DNA of 64,000 nt from Mobula hypostoma (taxonomy: Eukaryota), in the NCBI RefSeq assembly GCF_963921235.1, contig NC_086097.1, positions 57,848,001-57,912,000 on the forward strand, written 5' to 3'. The notes under the pieces were generated by a model, which was not told the origin of the DNA, did no database searches, and worked only from the letters and a program-made list of their open reading frames with translations. Position numbers and translations under genes: made by a program. This document shows positions 2,137-54,300 of this stretch, one piece after another. The stretch's first letter is position 1, and each line of letters starts with the position of its first letter.

Positions 2137-2275
2137 CAGTCCTGATGAAGGTTCTCGGGCTGAAACATTGACTGTTTATTCCCCTCCAGAGTTGCTACCT
2201 AACCTATTGAGTTCGTCCAGCATTCTGTCTGCATTGCTCTGCATTTTCAGCACCTACAGAAGCTCTTGTGCCAAT
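2137..2275 (+). mobile_element. Penelope-like terminal (pLTR) fragment with degenerate hammerhead core
   Basis: cagtc-CTGATGA-aggttctcgggct-GAAAC-att-gactg at 2137-2174, followed by the same tail as the PLE at 49437-51337. Confidence 0.75.
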
Positions 2276-6477: not shown

Positions 6478-6968
6478 GAGACACACATATCAAATTTGCT
6501 GGTGGACACAGCAGGCCAGGCAGCATCTCTAGGAAGAAGTACAGGTGACGTTTCGGGTCGAGACCCTTCGTCAGGATTAACTGAAGGAAGGGCTATTGAG
6601 AGATTTGAAAGTGGGAGGGGGAGGCGGAGATGCAAAATGATAGGAGAAGACAAGAGGGGGAGGGATGGAGCCAAAAACTGGACAGGTGATTGGCAAAAGG
6701 GATATGAGAGGATCATGGGACAGGAGGCCCAGGGAGAAGGAAAAGGGGGAGGGGGGAAAAAACCCAGAGGACGGGCAAGGGGTATAGTCAGAAGGACAGA
6801 GCGAGAAAAAGGAGAGAGAGAGAAAGAATGTGTGTATATAAATAAATAACGGATGGGGTACGAGGGGGAGGTGGGGCATTAGCGGAAGTTAGAGAAGTCA
6901 AGGTTCATGCCATCAGCTTGGAGGCTACCCAGACGGAATATGAGGTGTTGTTCCTCCAACCTGAGTGT
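6478..6968 (-). mobile_element. Penelope-like element 3' fragment (end of GIY-YIG ORF plus pLTR with hammerhead)
   Basis: Closely matches the reverse complement of 50860-51337; hammerhead core at 6542-6579. Confidence 0.9.
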
Positions 6969-6969
6969 G

Positions 6970-7892: not shown

Positions 7893-8250
7893 ACTAAGGG
7901 AGACTGTAGATGCTGGAAATCTAGCTCAACACACACAAAGTGCTGGAGAAACTCGGTGGGTCAGGCATTATCTTTGGAAGAAAACCAGCAGTGGATGGTA
8001 TGGGCCAAGACCCTTCATCAGCACTAGAAAGAAAGGGGGCAGAAGCCAGAATAAAAGACTAAGGGGTGGGGAAGAAACAGGATCTGGAAGATGATAGGTG
8101 ATTCCAGGTGAAGGAGAGGGCAGGAGGGTGGGGAAGGTGGTTCAAACGCAATAATATAAAAAACTGGTTGGGGAAGGCAAAGATCTGAAGAAGAAGGAAT
8201 CTGACAGGAAAGGACTATGGAATAAAGAAGGGAGGTGGGAGCCAGAGGGA
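7893..8250 (-). mobile_element. Older Penelope-like pLTR fragment
   Basis: 'ctgtagatgctggaaatct..cacacaaagtgctggagaaactc..cccttcatcag' followed by a purine-rich tract, as in the other PLE copies. Confidence 0.75.
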
Positions 8251-17178: not shown

Positions 17179-17760
17179 ATGCAACATACATCAAAGTTGC
17201 TGGTGAATGCAGCAGGCCAAGCAGCATCTATAGGAAGAGGTGCAGTCGACGTTTCAGGCCGAGACCCTTCGTCAGGACTAACTGAAGGAAGAGTGAGTAA
17301 GGGATTTGAAAGTTTGAGGGGGAGGGGGAGATCCAAAATGATAGGAGGACAGGAGGGGGAGGGATAGAGCCGAGAGCTGGACAGGTGATAGGCAAAAGGG
17401 GATACGAGAGGATCATGGGACAGGAGGTCCGGGAAGAAAGACAAGGGGGGGGGGTTGACCCAGAGGATGGGCAAGAGGTATATTCAGAGGGACAGAGGGA
17501 GAAAAAAGAGAGTGAGAGAAAGAATGTGTGCATAAAAATGAGTAACAGTTGGGGTACGAGGGGGAGGTGGGGCCTTAGCGGAAGTTAGAGAAGTCGATGT
17601 TCATGCCATCAGGTTGGAGGCTACCCAGACGGAATATAAGGTGTTGTTCCTCCAACCTGAGTGTGGCTTCATTTTTACAGTAGAGGAGGCCGTGGTTAGA
17701 CATGTCGGAATGGGAATGGGATGTGGAATTAAAATGTGTGGCCACTGGGAGATCCTGCTT
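17179..17760 (-). mobile_element. Young Penelope-like 3' fragment inserted in the R4/Dong element
   Basis: QDLPVATHFNSTSHSH..LGSLQPDGMNIDFSNFR plus pLTR; hammerhead at 17243-17281; very similar to 50764-51337. Confidence 0.92.
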
Positions 17761-25978: not shown

Positions 25979-28843
25979 TCCACAAACATGAGAAAATCTG
26001 CAGATGCTGGAAATCCAAGGAACACACACAAAATGCTGGAGGAACTCAGCAGGCCAGGCAGCATCTATGGAAAAAAGTACAGTCAACGTTTTGGGCCGAG
26101 ACCTTTCGGCAGGACTGGAGAGAAAAAGATGAGGAATAGATTTTAAAGGTGGGGGAGTGGAGAGAGAAACACAAGGTGATAGGTGTAACCAGGAGGAGAA
26201 GGGATGACATAAAGAGCTGGGAAGTTGATTAGTGAAAGAGATGCAGGGCTGGAGAAGGGGGAGTCCGATAGGAGAGAACAGAAGGCCATGGAAGAAAGAA
26301 AAGTGGGGGGGAGGGGCAGTACCAGAGGGAGGCGATGGGCAGGCAAGGAGATAAGGTGTGAAAGGGAAAAGGGGATGGGGAATGGTGAGGGGGGGGCATT
26401 ATCGGAAGTTTGAGAAATCGATGTTCATGTTATCAGGTTGGAGACTATCCAGACAGAATATAAGTTGTTGTTCTTCCAACCTGAGTGTGGCCTCATTGCG
26501 ACAGTAGAGTAGGCCATAGATTGATATATCGGAATGGGAATGGGAAGTGGAATTAAAATGGGTTGTCACCAGGAGATCCTGCTTCTTCTGGCGGACAAGG
26601 TGTAGGTGCTCTGCGAAATGGTCTCCCAATCTACTTTGGGTCTCACTGATATACAGGGGGCCACACTGGGAGCACTGGACACAGTATATGACCCCAACAG
26701 ACTCGCAGATGAAGTCTCGCCTTACCTAGAAGGACTATTTGAGGTCTTGAATGGTAGTGAGGGAGGAGGTGTAGGGGCAGGTGTAGCGCTTATTCCGCTT
26801 GCAAGGATAAGTGCAGGAGGGAGATCAGTGGGGAGGGATGAATGGACAAAGAAGTCTCATAGAGAGCGATCCCTGTGGAAAGCAGAAAATGAGGGGCGGG
26901 AAGATGTGCCTGGTGGTGGGATCCCGTTAGAGATGGCAAAAGTTCCAGAGAATTATGTGCTGGATGCGGAGGTTGGTGGGGTGGTAAGTGAGGACAAGAG
27001 GAATCCTATCCCTGGTAGGGTGGCAGGAGGTTGGGGTAACAGTAGACGTGTGTGAAATGGAAGATATGTGGTTGAGGGCAGCATTGATGGTGGAAGAAGG
27101 GAAGCCATTTTCTTTGAAAAAGGAGGACACCTCCTTTGTTCTAGAATGAAAAGCATCATCTTGAGAGCAGATGTGGCTGAGATGGAGGAACTGAGAGAAG
27201 GAGATGGCATTTTTACAAGTAACAAGGTGGGAAGAGGCAGCTATGAGTCTGTAGAGGTAAATGTGTGTAGGTATGAAAATTAGCACGGCAGGGAAATGGT
27301 TAACAATTAGGAATTTGTGGGCCTGTTATGTTGTTGAGCAGATTGACCCTTGATACTAGATAAGGAGAGAACAACATGTGACTCTGGTCTACTGGATAAC
27401 CTGCTCGAGAGCACGCTAAAAGTGCTGATTTGTGTAAAAGTAATTAATCACCTTGTCTCTAAAGAATGTTTTTTTACATTGTTTGGTTGTAAGATTAATA
27501 GGATGTATTGTCCCTGAGGGGGAAAATGCCGTTTGTTACAGGTCACCCGACCGTGGTACTTGCAGGTATGAAGGATGTACGTTGGCTTAATACGTGGCCA
27601 GGACTTGGACTGGCCCAAGTTAGGGTCGTGTAAGCGTTCAATTGGATGCCTAGCCCCTCCCAGCTGGACTGGGAGGTGGTGATAGTGCTATAAAGGTGGA
27701 AAAGTTCTTTCCTGGGTAGACCACTCGCCTGGCTCCCACCTTCAGGCCGAGCAGCTGAACCGATTCCGAGGACCTCCACCCTAGCCGGTCCATGGTCGAT
27801 CGCCCGCTTCAGGGACCAAGCAGACGTTGCTATGTATACTCAGCGGTGTAGACTACTAGGGGTTGTTTAAGTTAGGCCCCACCTATTAGTGGTGTAGGCA
27901 GTGTACAATATAAAGCATTTCTTGCAACTCTCTATTTCCTTCTCTGTATTAACAATAAAGTGACTCTCGGAGGAACTACCGAGTCTGGGTCCATTTGTTC
28001 AAGCGAAACCAAATAGTTGCAGCATCCACCCATCACGGTTATTCTTACTGGGTATCAGTTTTGTGGAACTGAGTCCATGGGTTTATAATAGACATCAGCA
28101 GATAAGTTGTCTCCAGAAACAGGGACAGTGAGATCGAGAAAGGGGTGGGAGGTGTCAGAAATGAACCAGATAAATTTGAGGACAGGGTGGAAGTTGAAGG
28201 TGAAGTTGATGAAGTTGACGAGCTTGGCATGCATGCAGGAAGCAGCACCAATGCAGTTGTCGATGTAGCATAGGCAAAGTGGGGGACAGACACCAGTGTA
28301 GGCTTGAAACATAGACAGAACTTGAAATCATTGAAAAGATCCAGAGCATGTGAAGTGTCATGGATGTAGGTAGGGAGGGACTGAACTGGCGGTGGCGGGG
28401 GGGGGGGGGGTAGGAATAAAACAGAGTTAAGGTACGCAGATATGAGTTTAGTGGGGGAGGAACAAGCTGAACAATGGGTCTGCTTGGACAAGTGGGTTTT
28501 CCCTGTCTCATCTTATCTCCTTGCCCACCCATCACCTCCCTCTGGTGCTCCTCCCCCTCTTTTCTTTCTTCCATGGTCTTCTGTTCTCTCCTATTGGACT
28601 CCCCCTTCTCCAACCCCGTATCTCTTTCACCAATCAACTTCCCAGCTCTTTACTTCTTCCCTCCCCCTGCCATTCTCACCTATCTCGTTGGTTTCTCTTG
28701 CTCCCTCCCCCACCTTTTAAATCTGCTCCTCGTCTTTTTTTTTCCAGTCCTGCCAAAGGGTCTCATTCCAAAATGTCGACTGTACTTTCCGTAGATGCTG
28801 TCTGGTCTGGTGAGTTCCTCCAGCATTTTGTGTATGTTGCGGT
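25979..28843 (-). mobile_element. Penelope-like element with an inverted pLTR copy (28497-28840) and a solo LTR inside
   Basis: RT remnants (YIDNCIG, LKFIWFISDTSHPFLDL) and GIY-YIG C-terminus on minus; inverted tail on plus; flanking repeat gagatattat at 25969-25978 and 28844-28853. Confidence 0.88.
27250..28070 (+). mobile_element. Solo LTR (~820 bp, retroviral type)
   Basis: Interrupts the Penelope RT with a 5-bp duplication gagtc (27245-27249 and 28071-28075). Starts TG, has TATAAA near 27688 and AATAAA near 27954; the 3' end reads CT rather than CA. Confidence 0.75.
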
Positions 28844-29477: not shown

Positions 29478-29750
29478 TAAGACCAGAAGACATGGGAACA
29501 GAATTCGGCCATTTGGCCCATTGACTCTGTTCTGCCATTCTGCCATGGCTGATTTATTATCCTTCTCAACCCCATTCGGCTGCCTTCTCCCCATAACATT
29601 TGACACCCATCTTTAGGTCCTGAAGAAGGGTCCTGGCCTGAAATGTTCAACTATGTATTCATTTCCATAAATGCTGCCTGACCTGCTGAGCTCCTGCAGC
29701 TTTTTGTGTGTTTTGGATTTCCAGCATCTGCAAACTTTGTCGTGTTTATG
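29478..29750. mobile_element. CR1 3' tail (minus, 29478-29610) abutting a Penelope pLTR tail (plus, 29615-29750)
   Basis: 'cagaattcggccatttggccc' is a CR1 terminus; gtc-CTGAAGA-agggtcctggcct-GAAA is a hammerhead-like core. Confidence 0.75.
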
Positions 29751-31760: not shown

Positions 31761-31914
31761 TTGGCTGCTCCGCTTACACCTGTCTTCTTTTTATTGATCC
31801 CTGCTGAATCTCTAGGAGAAAATATTATGATTGCAGTGCATAGAAAATTTCCAAAATGCCTCAAGCTCTTTTTATACCTCATGCTACCTCACCAACAAAA
31901 GACTTCTCGCGATG

Positions 31915-32200
31915 ATTGCAGTCTGCCAGAATCTGGAAGTCTAGCGTAACACATACAAAATTCTGGAGGAACTCAGCAGGTCAAGCAGCATCTATGGAGT
32001 GGAATAAGAGACTCGTCATCAGGACTGAAAAGGAAGGGGGAATAAGCCAGAATAAGAAGGTGGGGTGAGTGGAAGAAGTTCATTCTGTTAGGTGACAGGT
32101 GAAACCAGGTGAGTGGGAGGATAAAGTAAGAAGATGGGAGGTGATAGGTAGAAGAGGTTAAGGGCTGAAGAAGAAAGAATTTGATAGGAGAGGACAGAGA
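31915..32200 (-). mobile_element. Penelope-like pLTR fragment
   Basis: 'aaaattctggaggaactcagcaggtcaagcagcatctatgga..tcatcaggactg' with a partly deleted hammerhead. Confidence 0.75.
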
Positions 32201-32204
32201 TGTT

Positions 32205-32520
32205 TCTGCGAAACCTTCCAAACCCACTGGCATGATAGGTTAACCAAAATCAGTGTGCTCTCCCAGACCAACAATTAACTTGGTGAGCTCCAGTTAACTC
32301 AGCCACATCATCTGCAGAATAAAGCTCTCTGCTCAAACTGTGTCAAGATGACATATTTTCAGAAAAGAGGAAACAATTCACAGATGTTTTCAAAGACTTC
32401 TTGAATAAAGGTGACCCTGCCCCTTCCCCCCATTGATTGGCAGGGATCATTAGTCTGAGATTTCTACATTAGTGAATGACCATTTGATATGTTACAGAGC
32501 ACCTGGGGTCTCTTCATGAG
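32205..32520 (+). mobile_element. Old RTE-clade LINE 3' fragment
   Basis: Degenerate HW.DRLT..SVLSQ.N and RKQFTDVFK..L motifs resembling the RTE ORF2 C-terminus. Confidence 0.5.
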
Positions 32521-32659
32521 GACACAAAAGATACTGCAGATGCTGGAGATCTTGAGCAGCACACACAAAATGCTGAAGGAACTGAACAAACCAGGCAGTA
32601 GCTCTCTAGGGGAATAAACAGCTGATGGCTGGAAACAGGTGTTTTTTTTCCACGCAATG

Positions 32660-32875
32660 ATAATTGGTATCTGGGAATAAGCTGCCAGGGATGTGGTAAA
32701 GACTTGAAAAGTCGCAACGTTCAAAAGGCATCTGGAGAGATGCTTGAATGAGCAAGGCATAGAGGGATATGGAATTAATACAGGTAAGTGGAATTAGAAT
32801 AGTTAGCACGCCAGTTGGCATTGATGTGCTGGGCCCGAGGATCTGTTTCTATGCTGTACAACTCTCTGACTCCAT
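32660..32875 (+). mobile_element. CR1 3' end fragment
   Basis: 'tggaataagctgccagggatgtggta..gggcccgaggatctgtttctatgctgtacaactct'. Confidence 0.75.
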
Positions 32876-33648
32876 GCTAATGAGATAGAAGTTATAAAGA
32901 TTTACTATATATGAGTTGTTAAAAAAGCATGCTCCTTTGGATGCATTCTTTTAGGTTGCTGCCGCTAAGAATTTCATAGCTTTAAATCCTAGAAATGGCA
33001 CATTTGCTGGCATACTTATTTCACTCATTCAGTACAAACTGGTTTAAGTGACACACTGCCTTTTGACCAATGATAGCTTTCCTCTGTCTTACCTTTTCTA
33101 TCTGCCTGTCTTTCTTCTCACAGCCCATGATGATCCATGATGCAAATTATTCCATCTGTTGGATACAGTTCTGCCTTTGGAGTCATGGAGTTGATCCAGA
33201 TTAAATTTTTATTTGTAATGTGAAGTAATATCACAATTTCTCTAAACATGTAATTCATGTTATTTATCGTGGACTGATTGTTGTATGAGTTGTATGATTG
33301 TGCACAGACAACAATATCTCCCACCATGCACTTGTCTATTATTGTTTGTTGCTTCATGGAGTGTAACAATGCAAGTTCAAAGAAAGGTCATTTTAATAGC
33401 ATTTATACGTTACATTCTGTTCATAAACAAAAAAAACCCATTACATTTTGATGGAACTATGCCCCACTATGTACAGTCCTGGAGGTTTTTGTTTTTTACT
33501 TTGAAACTGGGGACATGCCAAATCCAGACTAATCAAGCAGTTGAGTTATTCAGCTTCTTTTTTGAATTCAGTTAAGTCAGCCTTTCTATGGAATAGACGC
33601 TGACTTCTGACTTCAAGGTGTGTGTATAACACAACATGTCCTAGAACT

Positions 33649-33828
33649 CAAACAACAGGAATTCTGCAGATGCTGGAAATTCAAGCAACACACATCAAAG
33701 TTGCTGGTGAACGCAGCAGGCCAGGCAGCATCTATAGGAAGAGGCGCAGTCGACGTTTCAGGCCGAGACCCTTCGTCAGGATATGCTGCCTGGCCTGCTG
33801 CGTTCACCAGCAACTTTGATGTGTGTTG
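33649..33828. mobile_element. 180-bp fold-back mini-Penelope with a hammerhead core in the loop and a 14-bp TSD
   Basis: Perfect 47-bp inverted arms at 33685-33731 and 33783-33829; TSD catgtcctagaact at 33635-33648 and 33829-33842. Confidence 0.92.
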
Positions 33829-34052
33829 CATGTCCTAGAACTACAGCTACATGCCTTAGTAGTTTTATTACATCCCCAGTTCTTGCCTTGCATTATATAA
33901 AGAAAGTCACCTTTCAGGATAATGTTGGAAAAATATAGAATTGTTGTACTTTGAATTCACGACTGTGATGCTAAGAGAATTTTCTCAGATCACTTCCCAA
34001 CAAATTTTACTGCACATTTGTGGTTTAAGCTGAACATCAGTCAAATGTCTGG

Positions 34053-34261
34053 TACAAAAAATAAACTACTGGAGGTAGTTCGTTGATGGAAGTAGTGGTT
34101 GTTGTCTCATCTTGTTACCCTGCATCAGGACTCTGACACAAGGTCACAACCCAAAACACTGACTATCCCTTTGCCTCCACAGATGCTGCTTGCCCACTGA
34201 GTTCTTCCAGCAGTTTATATTTTGCTGCAGATTATACAAACTGCAGTCTCTTGTACCTCTA
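34053..34261. mobile_element. Older fold-back mini-Penelope
   Basis: Head-to-head degenerate pLTR tails; flanking repeat tcaaatgt(c/a)tgg at 34041-34052 and 34262-34273. Confidence 0.7.
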
Positions 34262-34783
34262 TCAAATGTATGGCATTATACCTAAATGTTTATAACATTG
34301 CTTAATGTGATAAAAGCAACAATGTGCCTTTGCTTTTTTCTGTCAAAGGTAGTAAAAGTGCTTAAAAGGAGTATAATTGTATTAAGTTGCCACTAGGATT
34401 ACATTGAGATATTAGGCTGGAGGTCATCCAATAGGGAACTCCAGATAATGGGTCATAAATATAGAAGAGATCACGGGAATACTCCAGCGGCCAAGAGGCC
34501 ACATGCGCTTGGATGAGTTGATGATTTGAGTTGTCAAGATAGTTATTCATCATCTCTCTGTAAAGGTGTTCCAAAATGACTACATTCAACTGGAATTCAG
34601 AATACCCCCTAAATTTTGAAATGACATGCCTGCTTGTTTAAATGACAGCAACCAACTGTGTTCCAAACTAACTTGGTAAATAAAGAAGCAGTGAACCTTT
34701 GGTGAGTGGATAGAAGATCTAGATTTTTCTCCATAAAACTATGATGGTCACCAAAGATGTAGTAAGTGATCAGTCTTGGTATA

Positions 34784-35268: not shown

Positions 35269-38200
35269 TATTTTGGAGTTAAAACTCCAAGGACTTAACT
35301 CTCTCAAATCTTGGTCCTGTAGATGTTTTCTGCCCCAGAAATCAGTTCTAGGTGGCTGCTGATTGATTTTCTTATGATAGACAGTACTATAATTGCTCAA
35401 TGGAATTAGCTCTGACTGACTTTATGTATGTCCTGGATTTGAATGGATCTGCTCTAGACCTGGAACATAATGATAGATCTTGTTGCATGTGCCATTCAGA
35501 GCTTCTGTTGAACTTGGAGCTGGTATAGGAATAGAAAACCTTCTTGATTTGTATGTGGGCTTGTTAGAGAATATTCTGGAGCAATGTGAACATAGCAGAT
35601 ATTAATTCATGCAATAGCCAGTCTTCAGTTTTCATTGTAAATTGGTAGCAGTAAATTGAAGTTAAAAACCCAGGCTGCCCCAGGGACTAGGAGATATGGC
35701 TTTCAAAATGCTGACATGAGATATTTGCATATGCATCAGCCAAACGATAAAACAATAGGGTTGGGTAAATTGGCCTATGTCAAACCAGGTAACATGTGCT
35801 AAGTTATTTGCACCATTGTGACTGAGTTCAAGCTGGCAGACCAGGCTAATGCTGTCAGTTAGTATATCAAACTTGGTCACAGGTATAGGTCCAATCAATA
35901 GCTTGTGTATGCAGAGCATCAGCTCACACAAACATGAATCTTGGGTGTTTGGCTTTCTGTCTTCAGAAGGGTGTAGAATGTTTGTGTCAATTGTTTTTGT
36001 CCCAGCCGGCTGTTTGACCATTCAGAGGTGTATCCCACAGATATGTCATTCAAAGGAAGCATTGTGAACCCAAAATATTGAAGTAAACGATGTCATTGTG
36101 ACTATTGAAATTGTATTGAATCACCTGCTGTTAGCATAACTCAAATTGACACCTTCCTGAATTCTTTAGAATTACCCACTTTAAGCAAAGAACAAAATAG
36201 AGTGATGACTGCTGACATAACTGAAGATGAACTAAAAAAACTGCAATTAGTAGGCTTAAATTAAGCAAGTCACTGGGATCAGATGGATATATGGCACAAT
36301 GGTATAAAGAGTTTAGAAGTGAGTTAATTCCTGTTTTACTCCCCACACTGAACTGGGCTCTAAGAAAGGCACAAATGCCACCCAACTGGAAGGAGGCGAT
36401 AATCTCAGCTATACCGAAAGAAGGCAAGGATAAAATGGAATGTGGGTCATTTAGACCAATATCTGTTCTTAATGTGGATTATAAAACATTTACCTCCAGG
36501 ACCAAATGATTAGAAGAGTGTCTACCCATACTGATACATAATGATCAGACAGGTTTTATACAACAACGCCAAACACAAGACAATATACGAAGGACATTTC
36601 ACATTATGGATCATATAAAAAAAATGATTGAAACAATAGTGATAAACATGGACGCTGAAAAGGCATTTGATTCAGTTAATTGGAATTTTCTATACAGAGT
36701 TTTACATAGATTTGGTCTACATCACACAATTATTAAAACTATACAGGCACTATATGACAATCCTACTGCCAGGATTAAAATCAACGGATAATCATCTGAT
36801 AGTTTTACCCTAGAAAGGGGCACGAGACAGGGTTGTGCATGGTCACCGCTACTCTTCGCATTATATCTGGAACCATTAGCTCAATTTATCAGACAAAATG
36901 AAGATATCAGGGGAATTACTACTAAAGGGACAGAGCATAAATTGGCCTGTTATGCGAATGACATTTTGATCTATCTAGGGCAACCAACATACTCTTTACC
37001 TAAACTGATGCAGTCCTTTGAACAATATGGCCAATTATCAGGATACAAGATCAACATAGATAAAACCCAACTACTTTCATATAACTATAGCCCACCAAGA
37101 GAAATTGAAAGTAGATATCCCTGGGCATGGCAAACAGAGCCTGTCAAATATTTGGGTATCATTATGCCAAAAGATTTGGCAAAATTATCAGAATACAATT
37201 ATCAGCCTATATATAAAAAAATTAAGGAAGATATAACAAGATGGAACCTAATTCCCTTTCTTGGTTTCAGTTCAAGGATTGAAACTATTAAAATGAATAT
37301 ACTGCCCAGACTACTATATCTCTTTCAGACTCTACCAATAGAGATTAACCAAAATCAATTCAATGAATTGAACAAGATGCCATCAAGATATATATGGCAA
37401 GGTAAAAGGCCTAGGGTTCGTCTTAAAACTTTGCAATTAGCCAAGGAAAAGGGGGGATGGGGCCTACCTTTTCTTAGAGATTATTATTTTTCAGCACAGT
37501 TGAGAGCCGTGATATGCTGGTGCAACTCATCATACGGCGCTCAATGGAAAAACATTGAGGAGAGGATACTTTCCATCCCCATACAGGCAATTTTGGCTGA
37601 TAACAACCTACAAGATTACATAAATACTATGGATAACCCATGGGTGAAATGGACTCTTAAAATATGGAAAACTATTATAAAAGAATATAAACTAGAGCGA
37701 GACATTGCAATTCTTAAATGGTCTGCATATGACTCGGATTTTACACCAAATAAAGTTGATGCTAGATTTAAGGACTGAACAGCTAAAGGAATAACAACTA
37801 TTTGCAATATAATGAAAGAAAGAATACTGTTCTGTTTTGAAATGCCCAAGGAGAAACACTTATTAGAAAAACAAGACTTTTACCAGTATTTACAGATGCG
37901 ACAGTAGGTTAATAGGACGGTTAAAAATGTAACCAAGGCAAGTACATGTCTGATAGACCTATTTAGAAAAGCATATAATTCAGACAATGGTAGTAGAATA
38001 ATTTCAATCGTGTATAAGGGTTTGTCAAATCTTAAAACACATTCGACTTCATATATTAAAACAAAATGGGAGAAGGAAGGAGGGATAATAATATCTGAGG
38101 AAGACTGGACAATAATATGGAGGTATCAATGGAAGTGTATCAGTTCACAGAAATGGAGGGAGTTCGGGTGGAAAAACTTGATAAGATATTTTATTACACC

Positions 38201-39125
38201 CTCTCAGAAATCCCGTTATGTTAATAACCTCCCTGTTTGCTGGAGAAATTGTGGAAATCAAAATGAAAACCATTATCATATTTTCTGGGAATGCCCCGTT
38301 ATCAAAGTCTATTGGAGTGGGATACAAGACATCTTTAAATGTGAAATACCCTTAGTGAGTAAGATCATATATTTTGGGTATATACCTCAAGAATGGTTGA
38401 AAAGAGATAAATATTTAATGAATGTAATGCTGGTAAAAAGACCCTTAGCAGGAAATGGTTATCTCAGGAGAGCCCAACTTTAAATGTATGGATGGAAATT
38501 ACAATGGACACTTACAAAATGGGGAAGATAGCAGGATCTGTTAATCATAAGTTGGAATAATTTTATTCATACTTGAAAAAATGGTTTAACTTCATAACAG
38601 CTCATAGGCCTGATTTTATTCTCACAAGTCAATGAACATATTGTAAAAATAAAAGATCACTCTCTACTCTGTACATAGAACATAGAACATAGAACAGAGA
38701 ATAGTACAGCACAGTACAGGCCCTTCAGCCCACAATGTTGTGCCGACCCTCAAACCCTGCCTCCCATATAAGCCCCCACCTTAAATTCCTCCATATACCT
38801 GTCTAGTAGTCTCTTAAACTTCTCTAGTGTATCTGCCTCCACCACTGACTCAGGCAGTGCATTCCACGCACCAACCACTCTCTGAGTAAAAAACCTTCCT
38901 CTAATATCCCCCTTGAACTTCCCACCCCTTACCTTAAAGCCACGTCCTCTTGTATTGAGCAGTGGTACCCTGGGGAAGAGGTGCTGGCTATCCACTCTAT
39001 CTATTCCTCTTATTATCTTGTACACCTCTATCATGTCTCCTCTCATCCTCCTTCTCTCCAAAGAGTAAAGCCCTAGCTCCCTTAATCTCTGATCATAATG
39101 CATACTTTCTAAACCAGGCAGCATC

Positions 39126-41311
39126 CTAGTAAATCTCCTCTGTACCCTTGGAGTTTGTCCTTCCAAAGTGTACCACCTCACACTTCTCCGGGTTGAACTC
39201 CATCTGCCACTTCTCAGCCCACTTCTGCATCCTATCGATGTCTCTCTGCAATCTTTGACAATCCTCTACACTATCTACAACACCACCAACCTTTGTGTTG
39301 TCTGCAAACTTGCCAACCCACCCTTCTACCCCCACATCCAGGTCGTTAATACAAATCAGGAAAAGTAGAGGTCCCAGAACAGATCCTTGTGGGACACCAC
39401 TAGTCACAATTCTCCAATCTGAATGTACTCCCTCCATCACCACCCTCTGCCTTCTGCAGGCAAGCCAATTCTGAATCCACCTGGCCAAACTTCCCTGGAT
39501 CCCATGCCTTCTAACTTTCTGAATAAGCCTACCGTGTGGAACCTTGTCAAATGCCTTACTAAAATCCATATAGATCACATCCACTGCACTACCCTCATCT
39601 ATATGCCTGGTCACCTCCTCAAAGAACTCTATCAGGCTTGTTAGACACGATCTGCCCTTCACAAAGCCATGCTGACTGTCCCTGATCAGATCATGATTCT
39701 CTAAATGTCTATCGATCCTATCTCTAAGAATCTTTTCCAACAGCTTTCCCACCACAGACGTAAGGCTCACTGGTCTATAATTACCTGGACTATCCCTACT
39801 ACCTTTTTTGAACAAGGGGACAACATTTGCCTCCCTCCAATCCTCCGGTACCATTCCCGTGGACAACGAGGACATAAAGATCCTAGCCAGAGGCTCAGCA
39901 ATCTCTTCTCTCGCCTCGTGGAGCAGCCTGGGGAATATTCCGTCAGGCCCCAGGGACTTATCTGTCCTAATGTATTTTAACAACTCCAACACCTCCTCTC
40001 CCTTAATATCAACATGATCCAGAACATCAACCTCACTCATATTGTCCTCACCATCATCAAGTTCCCTCTCATTGGTGAATACCGAAGAGAAGTATTCTTT
40101 GAGGACCTCACTCACTTCCACAGCCTCCTGGCACATCTTCCCACCTTTATCTCGAATCGGTCCTACCTTCACTCCTGTTATCCTTTTTTTCTTCACATAA
40201 TTGAAGAATGCCTTGGGGTTTTCCTTTACCCTACTCGCCAAGGCCTTCTCATGCCCCCTTCTTGCTCTTCTCAGCCCCTTCTTAAGCTCCTTTCTTGCTT
40301 CCCTATATTCCTCAATAGACCCATGCTTCCTAAACCTCATGTATGCTGCCTTCTTCCACCTGACTAGATTCTCCACCTCACTTGTCCCCCATGGTTCCTT
40401 CACTTTCCCATTCTTTATCTTCCTCATCGGGACAAATTTATCCCTTACATCCCGCAAGAGATCTCTAAACATCAACCACATGTCCATAGTACATTTCCCT
40501 GCAAAAACATCATCCCAATTCACACCCGCAAGTTCTAGCCTTATAGCCTCATAATTTGCCTATCCTCAATTAAAAATTTTCCTGTCCTCTCTGATTCTAT
40601 CCTTTTCCATGATAATGCTAAAGGCCAGGGAGCGGTGGTCACTGTCCCCACATGCTCACCCACTGAGAGAGTTGTGACCTGACCCGGTTCATTACCTAGT
40701 ACTAGATCTAGTATGGCATTCCCCCTGGTCGGCCTGTCCACATACTGTGACAGGAATCCATCCTGGACACAGTTAACAAACTCTGCCCCATCTAAACCCT
40801 TGGAACTAATCAGGTGCCAATCAATATTAGGGAAATTAAAGTCACCCATAATAACAACCCTGTTATTTTTGCACCTTTCCAAAATCTGCTTCCTAATCTG
40901 CTCCTCTGCATCTCTGCTGCTACCAGGGGACCTATAGAATACCCCCAATAGAGTAATTGCTCCCTTCCTGTTCCTGACTTCCACCCATATTGACTCAAAA
41001 GAGGATCCTGCTACATTACCCACCCTTTCTGTAGCTGTAATAGTATCCCTGACCAGGAATACCACCCCTCCTCCCCTTTTTCCGCCCTCTCTATCTCTTT
41101 TAAAGCACTGAAATCCAGGAATATTGAGAATCCATTCCTGCCCTGGTGCCAGCCAAGTCTCTGTAATGGCCACTACATCATAATTCCATGTATGTATCCA
41201 AGCTCTCCGTTCATCACCTTTGTTAATGATGCTTCTTGCATTGAGGTACACACATTTCAGCTCTTCTACCTTACTGTCTTTACACCATTTATTCTGCTTC
41301 TCTTTCCTCAA
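39126..41311 (-). pseudogene. CR1 ORF2 (APE-RT) broken by a frameshift and an internal deletion
   Basis: YLNARS, ITETW, GDFNFP; NYRPVSLTS, MDFSKAFDKV, GVPQGSVLGP, FADNTK. Frameshift near 40640 and deletion near 39148. Confidence 0.9.
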
Positions 41312-41394
41312 AGACTATCTGTATGTTAGATCTGGCTTTACTCCATGCATTCCTTTCACTGCTCTATCGCTCTGGGTCCCATTCCCCTCGCAAA

Positions 41395-42384
41395 TTAGTT
41401 TAAACCCTCCCGAACCATGCTAGCAAACCTACCTGCAAGGATATTGCTCCCCCTTGAGTTCAGGTGCAACCCATCCAATCTGTACAGGTTCCACCTTCCC
41501 CAGAAGAGATCCCAATGATCTAAAAATCTCAAACCCTGCTCCCTGCACCAACTCCTCAGCCACGCATTCAACTGCCATCTCCTCCAATTCTTACCATCAC
41601 TGTCACGTAGCACTGGCAGCAATCCTGAGAACGCCACCCTTGAGGTCCTGTTCTTCAGCCTTCTGCCTAGTTCCCGAAACTCACACTTCAGGACCTCATC
41701 CCTCTTCCTGCCTATGTCGTCGGTCCCAACATGTATCACGACTTCTGGTTGCTTTCCCTCTCGTACCAGGATGTCGTGCATCGGGTCAGAGACATCCCGG
41801 ACCCTGGCACCCGGGAGGCAACAAACCATGCAGGTGTCCTTCTCACGTCCACAAAATCTCCTGTCTGCTCCCCTGACTATAGAGTCTCCAATGACGACAG
41901 ATCTCCTCTTCTCTGTCCCACCCTTCTGCACCACAGGGTCGGACTCAGTGCTGGAGGCCCTGCCACCGTGGCTCACACCTGGTCGGTCGTCCCCGTCAAC
42001 AGTATCCAGGACGTTAAACTCATTATTCAGGGGAATGGCTACAGGGGTGCTCTGCACTACCTGTCTGCTCACCTTTGCTTTCCCTCCTCTGACTGTCACC
42101 CAACGACCTGCTTCCGACAGCCTAGGTGTGACTACCTCCCTGTAGCTCTCATCTATGACTGCCTCATTCTCCCTTATGAGTCGAAGGTCATCCAGCTGCT
42201 GCTCCAGATTCCTTACACGGTCTTCCAGATCGCCCTGCTGTATGCACTTCTGACAGATGTGACTCTGCAGGAGAGGGGCGTTCCCCCAAGACTGCCACAT
42301 CTCACATGAGAGACACATCACCATCTCAGGAGACATTGTACAAACTAACTGCGAGCTAGCTTGTCCTCCGCCTCTTCTCGTCAA
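41395..42384 (-). CDS. CR1 ORF1p: zinc finger/leucine zipper plus SGNH esterase domain (open frame)
   Basis: CLSC..CQKC, coiled coil, VIGDSIVR, HVGTDD, DGLHLN. Confidence 0.9.
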   Translation of the reverse strand: MTRRGGGQASSQLVCTMSPEMVMCLSCEMWQSWGNAPLLQSHICQKCIQQGDLEDRVRNLEQQLDDLRLIRENEAVIDESYREVVTPRLSEAGRWVTVRGGKAKVSRQVVQSTPVAIPLNNEFNVLDTVDGDDRPGVSHGGRASSTESDPVVQKGGTEKRRSVVIGDSIVRGADRRFCGREKDTCMVCCLPGARVRDVSDPMHDILVREGKQPEVVIHVGTDDIGRKRDEVLKCEFRELGRRLKNRTSRVAFSGLLPVLRDSDGKNWRRWQLNAWLRSWCREQGLRFLDHWDLFWGRWNLYRLDGLHLNSRGSNILAGRFASMVREGLN

Positions 42385-42797
42385 AGCCTCTCAAGTCAAA
42401 GCCTCAAAGCTCCACTCCTTCACTGGCCCACTCACGCTCATAGATTTCTTCTTCTGATTGTTCTTTCTTTCCTCTCCTTTCTATAAATGTATACCTCAGA
42501 TAAACATTATGTGGAGACTTGTGACAAATATGATTATATGATATATATGTTCAGTATCTGAAATGCATCTTATGGAAATATTTGTTTGATGATGAAATGC
42601 AATAAAAAATAAATTACAAAAAAAAGAATCACCTGCTGTTACCTTTGGATCTTAAGAGATAAAAATGTGATGTACTTTTGGGTTTGTGAGATTGTGAGTT
42701 GAGTGTTTCCATAAGTGCCTGCTTGTTCTGCAGAATAAAGACTCTCTATCACCAGCTTGACAGTGTCTCCGGTGACTTTGGTCACGGTCACAACATA

Positions 42798-47430: not shown

Positions 47431-49436
47431 CCTCCCCTTTTGATTAATGTAACATAAAGCTATATATGTAACAAAACATTCAATTTCCCTTTAACAAACC
47501 ATATTCATATAAGCATGCTTTCACAATAACTGTCCATAACTAACTTCACTATACTAAAGATTCACTTATGACAATGTCGGGTCATTCCTTCTTTCTCTTT
47601 GTATTTCAGAATTTGTAACTAGCAACTGGTCCACCAATTCTGTGTGAAATACCTCTGCTGGGACACGGAATGAAGATTTCTCTTCTTCAGATGTTAACAA
47701 TGGAAGATATGACAAAGCATCAGCATTGCTGTGTTGTTTGGTACCCTTGAACTCTATGTCAGAAGGGGTGGGCTCTTGGGAAAATTGCTCAACGTTGTAA
47801 CTGGGTAGCAGGCATCACTGTGGTTCCCTTCCTGGGTTTGAAAATGGACACAAAGGGCTGGTGGTCTATCACTAGAGGAAACGTTTGTCCATAGAGATAG
47901 TGGCGGGACTTCTTCAGTGCCCATACAAGACTAAGGGCCTTTTGGGCGACCTATGTGTTGCTGCATTCTGCACTCTCCAGTGATCTTGAGGCAAACAAAT
48001 TGGACATTCAGATCCGTCTTTCATAGTGTGTGACAAAATGTCTCCAATGCCGTAAAGGGACACATCACACACCAGTCTGATGGGCACAGATGGGTCATAA
48101 TCGGTGAGTAGTTCATCTGATGTTATTAGTCTTTGTATTTCCTTGAATGCTCTTTCACATCTTTCTGACCATTCCCACTTCGCTCCTGTCCATAACAGTG
48201 TGTTCAATGAGTGCAGCACTGTAGAAATGTTCGGGAGAAACTGGATGTGCTTTATGGAATCTCGGTGTTGCTGCTTCATCCAGTTCAATTCTGGCCTTTA
48301 TGCCTTTGAGTTTAGCAATACCCTTCTCAAACACCTTCTCATTAGCATTAAGCTGCTGTGACAGTCTTTGGTTACTGCTACCACTTGGGCTGCAGTTGCC
48401 TGTTGATAATATATTGCGAACTTTGATTGTGTGCCAGTCCAGTTGGATTTTTCTCAACCATTCATATTCGGAAAGTGCTGGTCCTCCACTTTTCAAAACA
48501 TAAAGCTCTAACTGCTGTGTTTTGCCTCCGTATGTCACCTTTACTTTCAGTTTGCCTTTGGGAGACGTTTTTTCACTTGTGTAGCTCTTTAGCATCACTG
48601 AGGTCTTCTCTAATAGTAGCTTAGAAAACAGTATATTGTAGTCAGTCTCTGAAGTTACAGGTAAAACTGACCCTGTATCCAGCTCCATTTTTAGTTTCAC
48701 AACAGACACATTTATTGTAATCCATATGAATTTGCGATCTCCTTCAGTAATAGTATGCAGTTCCAGGCATGACATCTCACTTTTCTTGAACCCTGTGTTG
48801 TCTGATTCAGTCACTTTGAGTATTTGTTTAGTTTTATGTTTGAACTTTTTCATTCTGGTTTTTCTCTTTGATTGTGCTTTTTGTCTGACTTGCACACTCC
48901 CTTTATGTAACCTTGTCAGTGACACTTTCTGCAAACATTTTCTTTGAAACAGGAGTCATTTGCATCATGGGAGGATTTGCCACATCATAACATTTTTGGC
49001 TTTTTGCATAATTCAAGGTCATTGTGTGTATTTCACATTCTAAATTCTTTTTCTGTAGTTCTGTTGCATCATGTGCTGCAGTCTCTAGCAATAATGCAAT
49101 AATCAATACCCGTTCTAAGGTTAGGTCTCTTTCTGACAGTAGCCTCTTTTGAGTGCTTTGACTATGCATGTCACATACAAGCCTGTCCCTTAATGCTTAG
49201 AAGGTCCATTTCTAAAGTCACAGTACTGGGAAAATCTGTGCAGTTCTGCAATGTATTCAGAAATGCTTTCATTCTTTGACTGGTTCCTTTTGTGAATCTA
49301 AATCTCTCAGTTATTACTAGTGGTTTAGGGCTCAACTGATTTTGTAAAATTGCAACATTTTCATCGAACGTCTTGCTTGCTGATTTTTCATGAGTTATTA
49401 AGTTGTGGAAAAGCACCCATTAAGCTAAGAAGTGTG

Positions 49437-51337
49437 CTCCTGCCCCACCGAACTCGTTTCTGCATACCTCGACACTGTTTTATCAGCCCTTGTTCAATCC
49501 CTTCCGACCTATGTTCGTGACACTTCTCACGCTCTTAAACTTTTCGATGATTTTAAGTTCCCTGGCACCCACCGCTTTATTTTCACCATGGATGTCCAGT
49601 CCTTATATACTTCCATCCCCCATCAGGAAGGTCTCAAAGCTCTATGCTTCTTTTTGGATTCCAGACCTAATCAGTTCCCCTCTACCACCACTCTGCTCCG
49701 TCTAGCGGAATTAGTCCTTACTCTTAATAATTTCTCCTTTTACTCCTCCCATTTCCTCCAAACTAAAGGTGTAGCTATGGGCACCCGTATGGGTCCTAGC
49801 TATGCCTGCCTTTTTGTTGGGTTTGTGGAACAATCTATGTTCCGTGCCTATTCTGGTATCTGTCCTCCACTTTTCCTTCACAACATCGACGACTGCATTG
49901 GCCCTGCTTCCTGCACGCATGCAGAACTCGTTGACTTTATTAACTTTGCCTCCAACTTTCACCCTGCCCTCAAGTTTACCTGGTCCATTTCCGACACCTC
50001 CCTCCCCTTTCTAGATCTTTCTGTCTCTGTCTCTGGAGACAGCTTATCCACTGATGTCTACTATAAGCCTACTGACTCTCACAGCTATCTGGACTATTCC
50101 TCTTCTCACCCTGTCTCTTGCAAAAACGCCATCCCCTTCTCGCAATTCCTCCGTCTCCGCCGCATCTGCTCTCAGGATGAGGCTTTTCATTCTAGGACGA
50201 GGGAGATGTCTTCATTTTTTAAAGAAAGGGGCTTCCCTTCCTCCACTATCAATTCTGCTCTTAAACGCATCTCCCCCATTTCACGTACATCTGCTCTCAC
50301 TCCATCCTCCCACCACCCCACTAGGAATAGGGTTCCCCTGGTCCTCACCTACCACCCCACCAGCCTCCGGGTCCAACATATTATTCTCCGTAACTTCCGC
50401 CACCTCCAACAGGATCCCACCACTAAGCATATCTTTCCCTCCCCCCCCTCTCTGCATTCCGCAGGGATCGCTCCCTACACAACTCCCTTGTCCATTCGTC
50501 CCCCCCATCCCTCCCCACTGATCTCCCTCCTGGCACTTATCCGTGTAAGCGGAACAAGTGCTACACATGCCCTTACATTTCCTCCCTTACCACCATTCAG
50601 GGCCCCAAACAGTCCTTCCAGGTGAGGCAACACTTCACCTGTGAGTCGACTGGGGTGATATACTGCGTCCGGTGCTCCCGATGTGGCCTTTTATATATTG
50701 GTGAGACCCGACGCAGACTGGGAGACCGCTTTGCTGAACATCTACGCTCTGTCCGCCAGAGAAAGCAGGATCTCCCAGTGGCCACACATTTTAATTCCAC
50801 ATCCCATTCCCATTCTGACATGTCTATCCACGGCCTCCTCTACTGTAAAGATGAAGCCACACTCAGGTTGGAGGAACAACACCTTATATTCCGTCTGGGT
50901 AGCCTCCAACCTGATGGCATGAACATTGACTTCTCTAACTTCCGCTAGGCCCCACCTCCCCCTCGTACCCCATCTGTTACTCATTTTTATGCACACATTC
51001 TTTCTCTCACTCTCCTTTTTCTCCCTCTGTCCCTCTGAATATACCTCTTGCCCATCCTCTGGGTCACCCCCCCACCCTGTCTTTCTTCCCGGACCTCCTG
51101 TCCCATGATCCTCTCATATCCCTTTTGCCAATCACCTGTCCAGCTCTTGGCTCCATCCCTCCCCCTCCTGTCTTCTCCTATCATTTTGCATCTCCCCCTC
51201 CCCCTCCAGCTTTCAAATCCCTTACTCACTCTTCCTTCAGTTAGTCCTGACGAAGGGTCTCGGCCTGAAACGTCGACTGCGCCTCTTCCTATAGATGCTG
51301 CTTGGCCTGCTGCGTTCACCAGCAACTTTGATGTGTG
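49437..51337 (+). mobile_element. Young Penelope-like element (RT plus GIY-YIG), 5'-truncated, 15-bp TSD
   Basis: MDVQSLYT, KGVAMGTRMGPSYA, NIDD, VIYCVRCSRCGLLYIGETRRRLGDRFAEH; one frameshift at the poly-C near 50441; TSD aagctaagaagtgtg at 49422-49436 and 51338-51352. Confidence 0.96.
51242..51279 (+). ncRNA. Minimal type I hammerhead ribozyme in the PLE pLTR
   Basis: Stem I UAGUC / CUGACGA / A-GGGU-cucg-GCCU / GAAA-CG-UC^ / GACUG; palindromic ACGU in place of stem III; predicted cleavage after 51274. Confidence 0.8.
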
Positions 51338-51376
51338 AAGCTAAGAAGTGTGGAGGTTTTCTTTTCCTCATTCATA

Positions 51377-54300
51377 AGGCCATAAGATATAGGAGCAGAA
51401 TTAGGCCATGTGGCTCATCGAGTCTGCTCTGTCATTTCATAATGGCCGATCTAATTTTCCTCTCAGCTCCAATCTCCTGCCTTTCCCCATATCCCTTCAT
51501 GCCCTGATCAATCAAGAATCTATTAATTTCTGCCTTAAATATACATAAAGACTTGGCCTCCACAGCTGCCTATGGCAAAGAATTCCACAGATTCACCATT
51601 CTCTGGCTAAAGATATTCCTTCTCATCTCTGTTCTAAAAGGACAACCCTTTGTTCTGAGGCTGTGTCCTCTGGTCATAGACTCTAACACCAGAGAAAATA
51701 CCCTCTCCATATCCACTCTATCAAGCCCATTCACCATTCCATAGGTTTCAATGAGGTCTTCCCTCATTCTTCTGAATCCTAGTGAGTAGAGGCCATCAAT
51801 CACTTTTCATATGACAAGCCATTCAATCCTGGAATAATTTTTGTGAACCTCTTTTGAACCCTATCCAATTTCAGCAAATCCTTTCTAAGATAAGGGGCCC
51901 AAGCCAACTCACAATGCTCCAAGTGAGACCTCATCAACTCACATTACTCCGAGACTTCATCAAAATTTCATAAAATTTCAACATTACATCCTTGTTTTTC
52001 TATTTTATACTTGAAATGAATGCAAAAATTGCATTTGCCTTCCTCACCACAGACTCAACTTGCAAATTAACCTTTAGGGATTCCTGCACAAGCACACCCA
52101 ATCATTTGCACCACAGTTCTTTGTATTTTCTTTCCACTTAGAAAATAGTCAACCCTTTCATTTCTTCTACAAAAGTACATGACCACACACTTCCCAACAC
52201 AGTATTCCATATGCCATTTCTTTGCCCATTCTCCAAATCTGTCTAAGTCCTTTGGTACCCTCTCTACTTCCTCAAAACTACCTGCCCCTCCACCTATCTT
52301 CATATTGTCTGCAAACTTTGCAACAAAGCCATCAATTCTATCATCCAAATCATTCACATATAACATAAAAAGAATCGGTCCCCACACAGACCCCTGTGGA
52401 ACACCACTAGCCAGTAAAAACTCCATTTATTTCCACTCTTTGCCCCCTGCCAAACAGCCACTGCTTTATCCATGCTAGAAGCTTTCCTGTAATACTTGTA
52501 AAGCAGCCTCATGTGTAGCACCCTGACAACATCAACCAATTCTCCATTGTCTATCCTGCTTGTTATTCAAAGAATTTCAACAGAATTGTCAGAGAAGATT
52601 TGTCAGAGGAAACCATGCTGACTATGCCCTATTTTATTATGTGCCTCCAAGTACCCTGAGACCTCATCCTTAATAATTGACTCCAACATCTTCCCAACCA
52701 CTGAGGTCAGACCAACTGGCCTATAATTTCCTTTCTTCGGCCTCTCTCTCTTCTTGAAGAGTGGAGTGACATCTGCAATTTTCCAGTCTTCTGGAACCAT
52801 TCCAGTATCTAGTGATTCTTGAACGATCATTATTAATGCCTCTGCGATCTCTTCAGCCACCTCACGTTCAGAAGTCTGGGATGTACACTATCTGGTCCAA
52901 GTGACTTATCTACTTTCAGACCTTTCAGTATCCCAAGAACCTTCTCTCTAATTAAGGTAACCACTCACTTTATGACAATTGACACTTGGAACTTCCAGCA
53001 TGGTGATCCAGCAGTCTGATATCCACCCTTGCCTCTCTTTGACATTTTATGTATCTGAAGAAACGTTTGGTATTTTCTTTACTATTATTGGCTAGCTTAT
53101 ATTGAAGTCTGCCATGTCTGTTGTAACATTGCTCTTTTGGCATACTTTTTCTATCTCCCATTGTAATTTGTAGGCTAGATCCTTACTACTGTTTGGGGAT
53201 TTGTATGCAACTACCATCAGGGTCTTTTTACCCAAGCAGCTCCTTAGCTCTATCCACAATGATTCAACACCTTCTGACGCTATGTTATCTCTTTCTAATA
53301 ATTTGATTTCATTTTTTACCAACAGAGCAACACTACTCCCTCTGAATTCCTGCCTCTTTTGATACAATGTGCATCCTTGGACATTAAGCTCCCAGCTATA
53401 ATCATTCAGCTATGATTTAGTGATGCCTACAACATCATACCTGCCAATCTGGAATTGCAGTGCAGTACCTTATTCCGTATACTGTGCACATTCAAATACA
53501 ACACCTTTACTCCTGTTTTTACCCTTTTCAGTTTTGTCCACCTTTTATATTGCAACTCATCCTGTTGACTGCAATTTTGCTACAGCCTCTATCAACAGCT
53601 TCTCCTCACTACATTTTGCCACTGTTTGTAAACCAGCTACCTCATCTTCAGCACTGTCATCTGCCTTTCCTACAATATTTCTTGTATTGAAATTCAGGCA
53701 GTTCAGGACACTAGTCGCACCATGTTCAACCTTTTGATTCCTGTCTTTGACTGAGGTCTTACCAACAGCTCCCTCCACAACCTCTCCAGTAACTGTTCTG
53801 GCACTCTGGTTCCCACCCCCCCCCCCCACAACTCTAGTGTAAGGGGTTTCTTCTTTTATGTTACTGCGTAGGCTAATCAAAATGGCTTCTTTGTTATGTT
53901 AACTGTTGAGAAATTTCTCTCACTAGCAGCTTGTTTGGGTTATAGAGTGAGTTGGACTCAGTTGCTAACCAATTGGGATAGACGTTATTTTTACTTGTGT
54001 GTCTGTAAGCTATTGTGGTGCGTGGATGTTTGGGCAGAAGGTGTGATGGGGAGAGAGAGAGTGGACGTGATGCTGTGAGCGGCCGATGGGACAGACCCCG
54101 AGCTAGAGTCCGAGGTCCAGGGTCTTTGGCGAGGAGAGGAGATGAAGACAGACTCATGTGGAGCGTCTGGTCGACCACCATGGTTGGCCCCAGGCGGTGG
54201 GTCGAGGTGGTCAGAGGGGATCGAAGGGTGAAAAGGGGATCGTTACTAGAGCTCCAACTGTTGTGCACGAAGAGGTTGAACTTTGATAAGTTTGGCGCCT

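What the first reader, a model, noticed from the sequence alone, without database searches (positions are those of the whole stretch)
51242..51279. Family of minimal hammerhead ribozymes carried by Penelope-like elements (about ten copies)
Seen: the motif stemI-CUGANGA-A-stemII-GAAA-CG-UH-stemI' recurs at 51242-51279(+), 17243-17281(-), 33746-33780(-), 6542-6579(-), 2137-2174(+), 26080-26118(-), 28745-28782(+) and 29617-29650(+), with decayed copies near 8000 and 32015. Stem II keeps its pairing across copies (GGGU/ACCC, GGGU/GCCU, GGU/GCC). Stem III is replaced by the palindrome ACGU, and an extra A follows the CUGANGA box. Established: PLE pLTRs carry minimal type I hammerheads proposed to cleave as dimers. 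Inference: copies on the minus strand lie in the sense of the host pre-mRNA (6542, 17243, 26080, 33746) and could pair through ACGU and cut intronic RNA.
Basis: partly seen in the sequence, partly recalled or inferred. Interest (0 to 1): 0.7.

Follow-up and report, generated by a model that had tools for sequence, protein, structure and literature searches.

The report
Penelope hammerheads, mostly copied uncut
The motif is a real, already described kind of tiny predicted self-cutting RNA carried by a very abundant jumping gene; most copies in this window are broken, and the ends of copies across the genome suggest that the jumping gene's RNA is usually copied back uncut, so a role in cutting host transcripts is unlikely.

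Summary
The motif is real: a minimal type I hammerhead in the terminal repeat of a Penelope-like retrotransposon (3,513-nt unit; 1,043-aa RT plus GIY-YIG frame). One 34-nt pattern finds 48,468 exact copies in this genome (control 0). The class is published (Cervera and de la Pena 2014), and this scan noted this kind of element in this genome before. Only 2 of the 8 named copies (51242, 17243) keep core, both stems and the ACGU palindrome. The stem II variants are one-sided transitions; I found no two-sided covariation. The 37-nt motif is still a conserved island between subfamilies (identity 0.72, flanks 0.25 and 0.36). Copy ends argue for an uncut template: 3' ends lie about 65 or 102 nt past the cut; 5' ends pile up at the motif's front edge (1,338 at -32, 85 at the cut); 0 of 38 long copies stop at the cut. 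This matches in-vitro work on a lizard element. The youngest lineage has G10.1-U11.1 instead of G-C. No host exon was found, and the active dimer is predicted about 10 kcal/mol less stable than two monomers, so cutting of host pre-mRNA is unsupported.

The parts
51242..51279 (+). Minimal type I hammerhead motif, intact except G10.1-U11.1; predicted cut 51274/51275
49437..51337 (+). 5'-truncated young Penelope-like copy (98% identical to a full unit; starts about 1,836 nt before the cut, ends at +63)
49422..49436 (+). Left copy of a 15-bp target-site duplication
51338..51352 (+). Right copy of the 15-bp target-site duplication
49429..50948 (+). RT, linker and GIY-YIG part of the ORF, split over two frames (49429-50625 and 50427-50948); RT motif reads NIDD here, YIDD in full copy L062; a dead copy
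51209..51243 (+). A/T-rich box (TTTCAAAT) about 30 nt before the first A of stem I, then a pyrimidine tract; candidate core promoter (inferred)
17181..17760 (-). Young 5'-truncated copy (-510 to +67) with the second intact motif at 17243-17280
6483..6969 (-). Copy (-415 to +64); motif at 6542-6579 has core and stem II but a broken stem I
33645..33829 (.). Head-to-head inverted pair: -30 to +107 on the minus strand, +21 to +67 on the plus strand; stem I cut short at the junction
25983..28499 (-). Older copy in three pieces (75-82% identity for the two larger ones) with a core-dead motif at 26080-26117
28617..28840 (+). Older inverted arm with a core-dead motif at 28745-28782
29617..29732 (+). 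Old short copy starting at -31; palindrome and stem I lost
2137..2222 (+). Old short copy starting at the motif; palindrome lost
7904..8026 (-). Old decayed copy
31922..32045 (-). Old decayed copy; second half of the motif deleted
34132..34216 (+).

Best explanation
The motif is the minimal hammerhead in the terminal repeat of a Penelope-like retrotransposon; it likely serves the element's own RNA and likely cuts only weakly, and the scattered copies are passive insertion relics that were mostly copied from uncut RNA. Shown: the motif sits 299 nt after the stop codon and about 85 nt before the next open frame in tandem 3.5-kb units; copies end at two sites about 65 and 102 nt past the cut; they read through the cut; their 5' ends pile up at the motif's front edge. 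Inferred: the element's protein nicks DNA and starts reverse transcription at those two internal sites, as shown in vitro for the Anolis element; many RNAs begin at or near the first base of stem I (-32), so copying that starts near an RNA's 5' end runs off after about 100-140 nt and leaves the short and fold-back copies; long copies come from tandem read-through RNA or template jumps. Cutting is predicted to need the element's protein or a second motif and to happen in a minority of molecules. The youngest lineage carries a G-U pair where G-C is conserved, which is predicted to weaken it further.
For: Element anatomy: motif-to-motif distance 3,513, 3,512 and 3,515 nt in L061, L071, L075 and a 1,043-aa open frame with RVT_1 and GIY-YIG hits (both below Pfam's cut-off; GIY-YIG above it), YIDD and a Cx4CxxC linker. 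3' ends: 45 of 99 at +55..+73 and 51 of 99 at +93..+113, matching the two internal start sites and tail of PMC11167929. 5' ends: 36 of 88 copies that reach -21 stop within -21..-47, hazard 0.015 per nt against 0.001-0.004 on either side. Genome-wide junction counts: 1,338 at -32, 339 at -36, 85 at +1, 82 at -51, 23 at +4. Of 50 copies that continue into the ORF, 38 pass the cut, 0 stop at it, 6 stop at -18..-34 and 32 run past -50. Conservation between subfamilies starts sharply at -32: 0.72 inside, 0.25 upstream, 0.36 downstream, 53 older copies. L312 is a tandem of 310-nt units that each start at -34. PMC11167929 reports unprocessed RNA as the main substrate, protein-assisted cleavage and no RNA-seq ends at the cut.
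Against: There is a small excess of 5' ends exactly at the cut: 85 against 23 at +4, and 3 of 96 in the sample; 14 of 30 such loci were classed as host-flanked, 4 with a target duplication, so some cut RNA may be copied. The 5' pile-up is broad (27 nt) and 19 of 30 loci at -32 are inverted junctions, so a polymerase stall or microhomology could make it instead of an RNA start. 32 of 38 long copies run past the proposed start, which needs tandem, circular or jumped templates. The junction patterns differ in length and make-up, so their counts compare only roughly. No RNA end and no cleavage was measured.
Confidence: 0.7

Rival explanations
1. The two motifs of a tandem transcript cut as a dimer, the unit-length RNA is circularised, and the circle is the main template (the model of Cervera and de la Pena 2014).
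For: Long copies cross the cut seamlessly and run up to more than 1,300 nt into the previous unit (32 of 38), as a circle would allow. The motif is conserved between subfamilies and keeps the palindrome. Full elements carry two motifs 3.5 kb apart.
Against: A circle has no end at -32, yet that is where 5' ends pile up. The active dimer is predicted about 10 kcal/mol less stable than two inactive monomers (nearest-neighbour model only). In the Anolis system core mutants did not change insertion in vitro.
Confidence: 0.15
2. The 5' pile-up is a reverse-transcriptase stall or fold-back at the structured motif and pyrimidine tract; the RNA does not start there and the motif's role is unchanged.
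For: The pile-up spans -21..-47; most junctions at -32 are inverted (19 of 30); most long copies pass the spot.
Against: The peak is sharp at single positions (-32 is four times -36 and sixteen times -51); 10 of 30 loci at -32 were classed as host-flanked, 6 with a target duplication; an A/T-rich box lies about 30 nt upstream in several subfamilies whose spacers differ; conservation begins at -32.
Confidence: 0.3
3. Dispersed copies in introns pair through ACGU and cut host pre-mRNA.
For: About 48,000 exact young copies exist, so some must lie sense in introns (inference). A half-active dimer is conceivable on paper between 17243 (intact enzyme half) and 33746 (intact substrate half), 16.5 kb apart.
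Against: Only 1 of the 4 named minus-strand copies is intact. No host exon was found by a splice-site scan or by Pfam on the 150 longest of 221 open frames in non-repeat DNA. The monomer folds into an inactive form that pairs G5-A6-C7-G8 with the cut-site strand. Monomers of a related motif did not cut, and dimers cut weakly (PMC4209133).
Confidence: 0.05

Closest known systems
Minimal hammerheads (min-HHR) of metazoan Penelope-like elements (Cervera and de la Pena 2014, PMC4209133; parts 1-2 of 4 of the main text read, figures and supplements not seen)
   Same: Type I core, short stem I without loop 1, one extra nucleotide between 9 and 10.1, palindromic 15.2-16.2 in place of stem III, position in the terminal repeats, thousands of dispersed single copies; reported in Xena, Poseidon and Neptune elements of fishes.
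   Different: Stem II is 4 bp; the youngest lineage has G10.1-U11.1 where that paper calls G-C highly conserved; copy number (48,468 exact) is above the 4,000-9,000 it cites for coelacanth and Xenopus; sequence variety is low.
Poseidon element PAc of Anolis carolinensis (Frangieh et al. 2024, PMC11167929; parts 1-2 of 4 read, supplements not seen)
   Same: Two internal reverse-transcription start sites that bound a 30-40 nt tail; hammerhead near the ORF start; uncut RNA as template.
   Different: Here the motif lies wholly before the open frame, the protein has a Neptune-type linker, and 5' ends pile up at the motif's first base, which the parts read do not report.
Neptune clade of endonuclease-bearing PLEs (Craig et al. 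2021, PMC8557442; passages read)
   Same: RT followed by a CX2-5CxxC linker and C-terminal GIY-YIG; partial tandems, inverted 5'-truncated copies, one-sided tail.
   Different: Clade placement rests on the linker only; no tree was built, and Nematis also has such a linker.
Animal non-LTR retrozymes (bioRxiv 10.64898/2026.07.22.740005; passages and section 14 read, supplements closed)
   Same: L312 is a tandem of 310-nt hammerhead-bearing units derived from the PLE.
   Different: The window's copies are single truncated insertions of the autonomous element, not arrays; the L312 unit starts at -34, not at the cut.

Membership tests
Minimal type I hammerhead of PLEs | Core boxes CUGANGA and GAAA with a UH cut triplet | tested here: met
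   51242 and 17243 pass the descriptor, 0 hits in 200 shuffles; six other named copies fail
Minimal type I hammerhead of PLEs | Stems I and II can pair | tested here: met
   5 bp and 4 bp in the predicted fold; fold energy is not unusual (z -1.24)
Minimal type I hammerhead of PLEs | Extra nucleotide between 9 and 10.1; palindromic 15.1-16.1 | tested here: met
   Extra A and ACGU
Minimal type I hammerhead of PLEs | G10.1-C11.1 pair | tested here: inconclusive
   Met in older copies (C in 33 of 53), not met in the young lineage (GCCT in 332 of 375), where it is G-U
Minimal type I hammerhead of PLEs | Covariation in the stems | tested here: inconclusive
   No two-sided change among 268 descriptor hits; 45 of 89 double changes at 10.2-11.2 pair, 39 expected, P 0.066. 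Dead copies of one family are not expected to covary; unrelated families were not available
Minimal type I hammerhead of PLEs | Location in the terminal repeats of a PLE | tested here: met
   Two motifs 3.5 kb apart around the ORF in L061, L071, L075
Minimal type I hammerhead of PLEs | Self-cleavage at C17 | not testable with these tools
   Only an indirect, small excess of 5' ends at +1
Endonuclease-bearing PLE | Single ORF with RT and C-terminal GIY-YIG | tested here: met
   1,043 aa; RVT_1 E 5.7e-5 and GIY-YIG E 6e-4, both under Pfam's cut-offs; GIY-YIG over cut-off in the window; YIDD
Endonuclease-bearing PLE | Partial tandems, inverted copies and a 30-40 nt tail | tested here: met
Neptune clade | CX2-5CxxC linker between RT and endonuclease | tested here: met
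   Cx4CxxC at residue 910 of L062; feature from PMC8557442
Neptune clade | RT phylogeny groups with Neptune | not tested
   No reference set was held
Rfam hammerhead families | Score at or above a gathering threshold | tested here: not met
   0 hits in the window; no hammerhead hit at E up to 10 in 50000-52500

The most novel reading that the evidence does not exclude
The hammerhead is the first 37 bases of the element's capped RNA and works as a brake: cutting would remove the cap and the 5' leader just before the two reverse-transcription start sites. The lineage that made the last burst of roughly 50,000 copies fixed a G10.1-U11.1 change that weakens this brake. If so, PLE hammerheads limit rather than drive transposition, and natural old and young variants make that directly testable.
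Probability: 0.15. Interest if true: 0.6.

Novelty: new member of a known kind. Interest (0 to 1): 0.25.

Why it matters
As a class this is published, and this scan has logged this kind of element many times (1,692 notes in this genome fit the words 'hammerhead Penelope'). What remains of value is the fossil record: tens of thousands of copy ends that agree with the one in-vitro study of PLE transposition, and a natural old/young pair of ribozyme variants. They bear on the open question of what PLE hammerheads are for (PMC8557442 calls the function unclear). The host-RNA-cutting idea would matter more, but nothing here supports it.

Tried and rejected
Rfam, gathering and E-value modes: no hammerhead hit. 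DNA search of the own genome: nothing, because common words are skipped; patterns were used instead. Sequencing runs: no RNA holder listed; contigs of four guessed-RNA runs laid on 14500-34400 showed repeat-derived pieces and no spliced exon chain among the joints shown (15 shown, 91 not), which is no evidence on expression. Contigs laid on L063:3000-3700 cannot show RNA ends and showed no intron-type joint among the 13 listed, so the idea that the pyrimidine tract plus CAG before stem I is a splice acceptor, as in Drosophila Penelope, stays untested. Host-gene search: the splice-site scan and Pfam on 150 of 221 open frames gave only transposon domains, a zinc knuckle and one weak DUF; a long intron spanning the window is not excluded. 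One search dropped identical young copies by its duplicate filter (80 anchors); one search repeats it without the filter (93 anchors from 89 of 90 loci, L212 left out as an overlap) and its numbers are used. Its host/inverted labels are rough: some 'host' flanks look element-derived. A search for a second hammerhead family with a changed stem II found 89 matches (control 3), nearly all decayed copies of this family. A paper measuring G10.1-U11.1 was not found; the claim that it weakens cleavage is recalled, and PMC2837043 reports compensatory changes at that pair in crickets. No paper on this element in cartilaginous fishes turned up in two searches (listings only). The organism was not determined; that it looks like a cartilaginous fish is my recall.

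Full report
Observation. At 51242-51279(+) the window reads TAGTC CTGACGA A GGGT CTCG GCCT GAAA CG T C GACTG: stem I, the CUGANGA box, an extra A, a 4-bp stem II, GAAA, the ACGU palindrome and a UC triplet with the predicted cut at 51274/51275. Positions below count from that cut (+1 is the G after it; -32 is the A in the 5' arm of stem I). Homologues lie at all eight named places, near 8000 and 32000, and at 34130. A strict descriptor passes only 51242 and 17243, with 0 hits in 200 shuffles. The other six named copies have lost core bases, the palindrome or stem I. Rfam has no hit.

The carrier. The 51242 motif lies 299 nt after the stop of a broken RT and GIY-YIG frame, in a 5'-truncated insertion at 49437-51337 with a 15-bp target duplication. 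Fuller copies elsewhere in the genome (3.48 Gb) show a tandem unit of 3,512-3,515 nt from motif to motif and an open frame of 1,043 aa that opens about 85 nt after the motif's core begins. It has weak RVT_1 and GIY-YIG hits, YIDD and a Cx4CxxC linker, the linker that PMC8557442 ties to Neptune (passages read). One 34-nt pattern finds 48,468 exact copies, control 0; a pattern in the ORF start finds 570. So nearly all copies are terminal fragments.

Known class. PMC4209133 (parts 1-2 of 4 read) describes minimal hammerheads in PLE terminal repeats, including fish Neptune and Poseidon elements, with the extra nucleotide and the palindrome. It found no cleavage by a monomer and low cleavage by dimers. 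PMC11167929 (parts 1-2 of 4) shows for a lizard element that reverse transcription starts at two internal sites that bound the tail, that the ribozyme cuts only with the protein present, that core mutants insert normally, and that no RNA-seq reads end at the cut.

Covariation and selection. All 268 descriptor hits in 1.29 Mb of held loci are of this family and differ on one side of a pair at a time. Of 89 genomic copies changed on both sides of pair 10.2-11.2, 45 form a Watson-Crick pair against 39 expected, P 0.066, and none is C-G (hand tally). Better evidence is the conserved island: 53 older copies picked by an anchor outside the motif match the young copy at 0.72 over -32..+5, 0.25 over -65..-34 and 0.36 over +6..+16 (30 loci chosen by a motif pattern were left out). 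Contigs from three other organisms also carry the motif with different flanks.

A lineage-specific change. Position 11.1 is T in the young lineage: stem II arm GCCT in 332 of 375 young copies and GCCC in 30, while C-to-T or G-to-A decay at four other CpG positions is 12-31 of 375 (the sample is shaped by my patterns). It was therefore inherited from the active master. Older copies have C in 33 of 53. In contigs of four organisms C makes up 20, 39, 71 and 86 per cent of depth at that place (depth is not copy number). That G-U here weakens cleavage is recalled, not shown; I found no paper that measures it.

Copy ends. I mapped 99 of the first 100 listed matches (of 28,324) to a pattern downstream of the cut. 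3' ends: 45 at +55..+73 and 51 at +93..+113, the two start sites and tail of the lizard study. 5' ends: 3 at +1, 36 of 88 within -21..-47, 26 beyond the 450-nt limit. Genome-wide patterns that demand three non-element bases before a given position gave 23 at +4, 85 at +1, 1,338 at -32, 339 at -36 and 82 at -51; the patterns differ in length, so these compare only roughly. Of 30 loci at +1, 13 were inverted junctions, where stem I's own complement offers microhomology, 2 direct, 14 classed as host-flanked and 1 was no boundary; of 30 at -32, 19 were inverted, 1 direct and 10 host-flanked. Among 93 anchors in the ORF start (of 570), 50 continue into the ORF: 12 stop before the cut, 0 at it, 6 at -18..-34 and 32 run past -50, some by more than 1,300 nt. 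L312 holds four motifs in 310-nt units that start at -34.

Reading. The template was mostly uncut, since copies begin downstream of the cut and read through it; a small excess at +1 leaves room for minor cleavage. The pile-up at -32, the sharp start of conservation at -32 and an A/T-rich box about 30 nt upstream in several subfamilies suggest that many RNAs begin at the motif. I took that lead from earlier notes of this scan and tested it here only on DNA. A stall or fold-back is a live rival, and Drosophila Penelope has a TATA-less internal promoter (PMC2377424, passages). Long copies need tandem, circular or jumped templates; DNA cannot tell these apart.

Host pre-mRNA cutting. One of the four named minus-strand copies is intact. 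No host exon was found, though a long intron is not excluded. The monomer's best fold (-11.0 kcal/mol) pairs G5-A6-C7-G8 with the cut-site strand and is inactive; the active dimer scores -11.5 against -22.0 for two monomers (nearest-neighbour model, no protein or tertiary contacts). I put this at about 5 per cent.

Verdict. A new member of a known kind, noted before by this scan in this genome. Interest 0.25. The boldest reading not excluded is that the ribozyme is the 5' leader of the RNA and acts as a brake that the youngest lineage weakened (15 per cent).

Noticed in passing
L312 (G000:C2:157816200-157819200, minus strand): Tandem array of 310-nt units running from -34 to +276 of the element, four hammerheads; a retrozyme-like derivative whose unit starts at the motif's front edge, not at the cut. 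Similar direct tandems in L201, L210, L211, L308.
   Followed up: partly
L061-L080, L201-L230, L261-L320: 43 of 93 copies that reach the ORF start end at +144 to +405, beyond the two usual 3' ends; a minor class of downstream start sites.
   Followed up: no
window 33645-33829; L084, L104, L114, L115, L117, L121, L131, L164: Head-to-head inverted pairs usually have one arm ending near +65 and the other near +102, with 5' ends mostly close to each other.
   Followed up: partly
window 51292-51325 and about +20 to +85 in fuller copies: A conserved block downstream of the motif is predicted to form nested hairpins around the two 3' end sites; candidate protein-binding or priming structure.
   Followed up: partly
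window 51226-51241, 26118-26135, 28728-28746: A pyrimidine tract followed by CAG precedes or overlaps stem I, like the intron end at helix I in Drosophila Penelope; no spliced form was seen in contigs.
   Followed up: partly
G000:C90:7173248-7203228: Four identical variant motifs, three of them 2,342 nt apart; part of a larger tandem repeat.
   Followed up: no
window 8700-10100 and 14000-15900 (minus strand): Pieces of an LTR retrotransposon of Gypsy type (integrase, RNase H, RT hits), interrupted by other repeats.
   Followed up: no
window 39126-42390 (minus strand), 12248-13390, 36792-38483: Long non-LTR retrotransposon frames (CR1/L2-like and L1/Tx1-like by recall); about 68% of the window is repeat by self and locus matches.
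   Followed up: no
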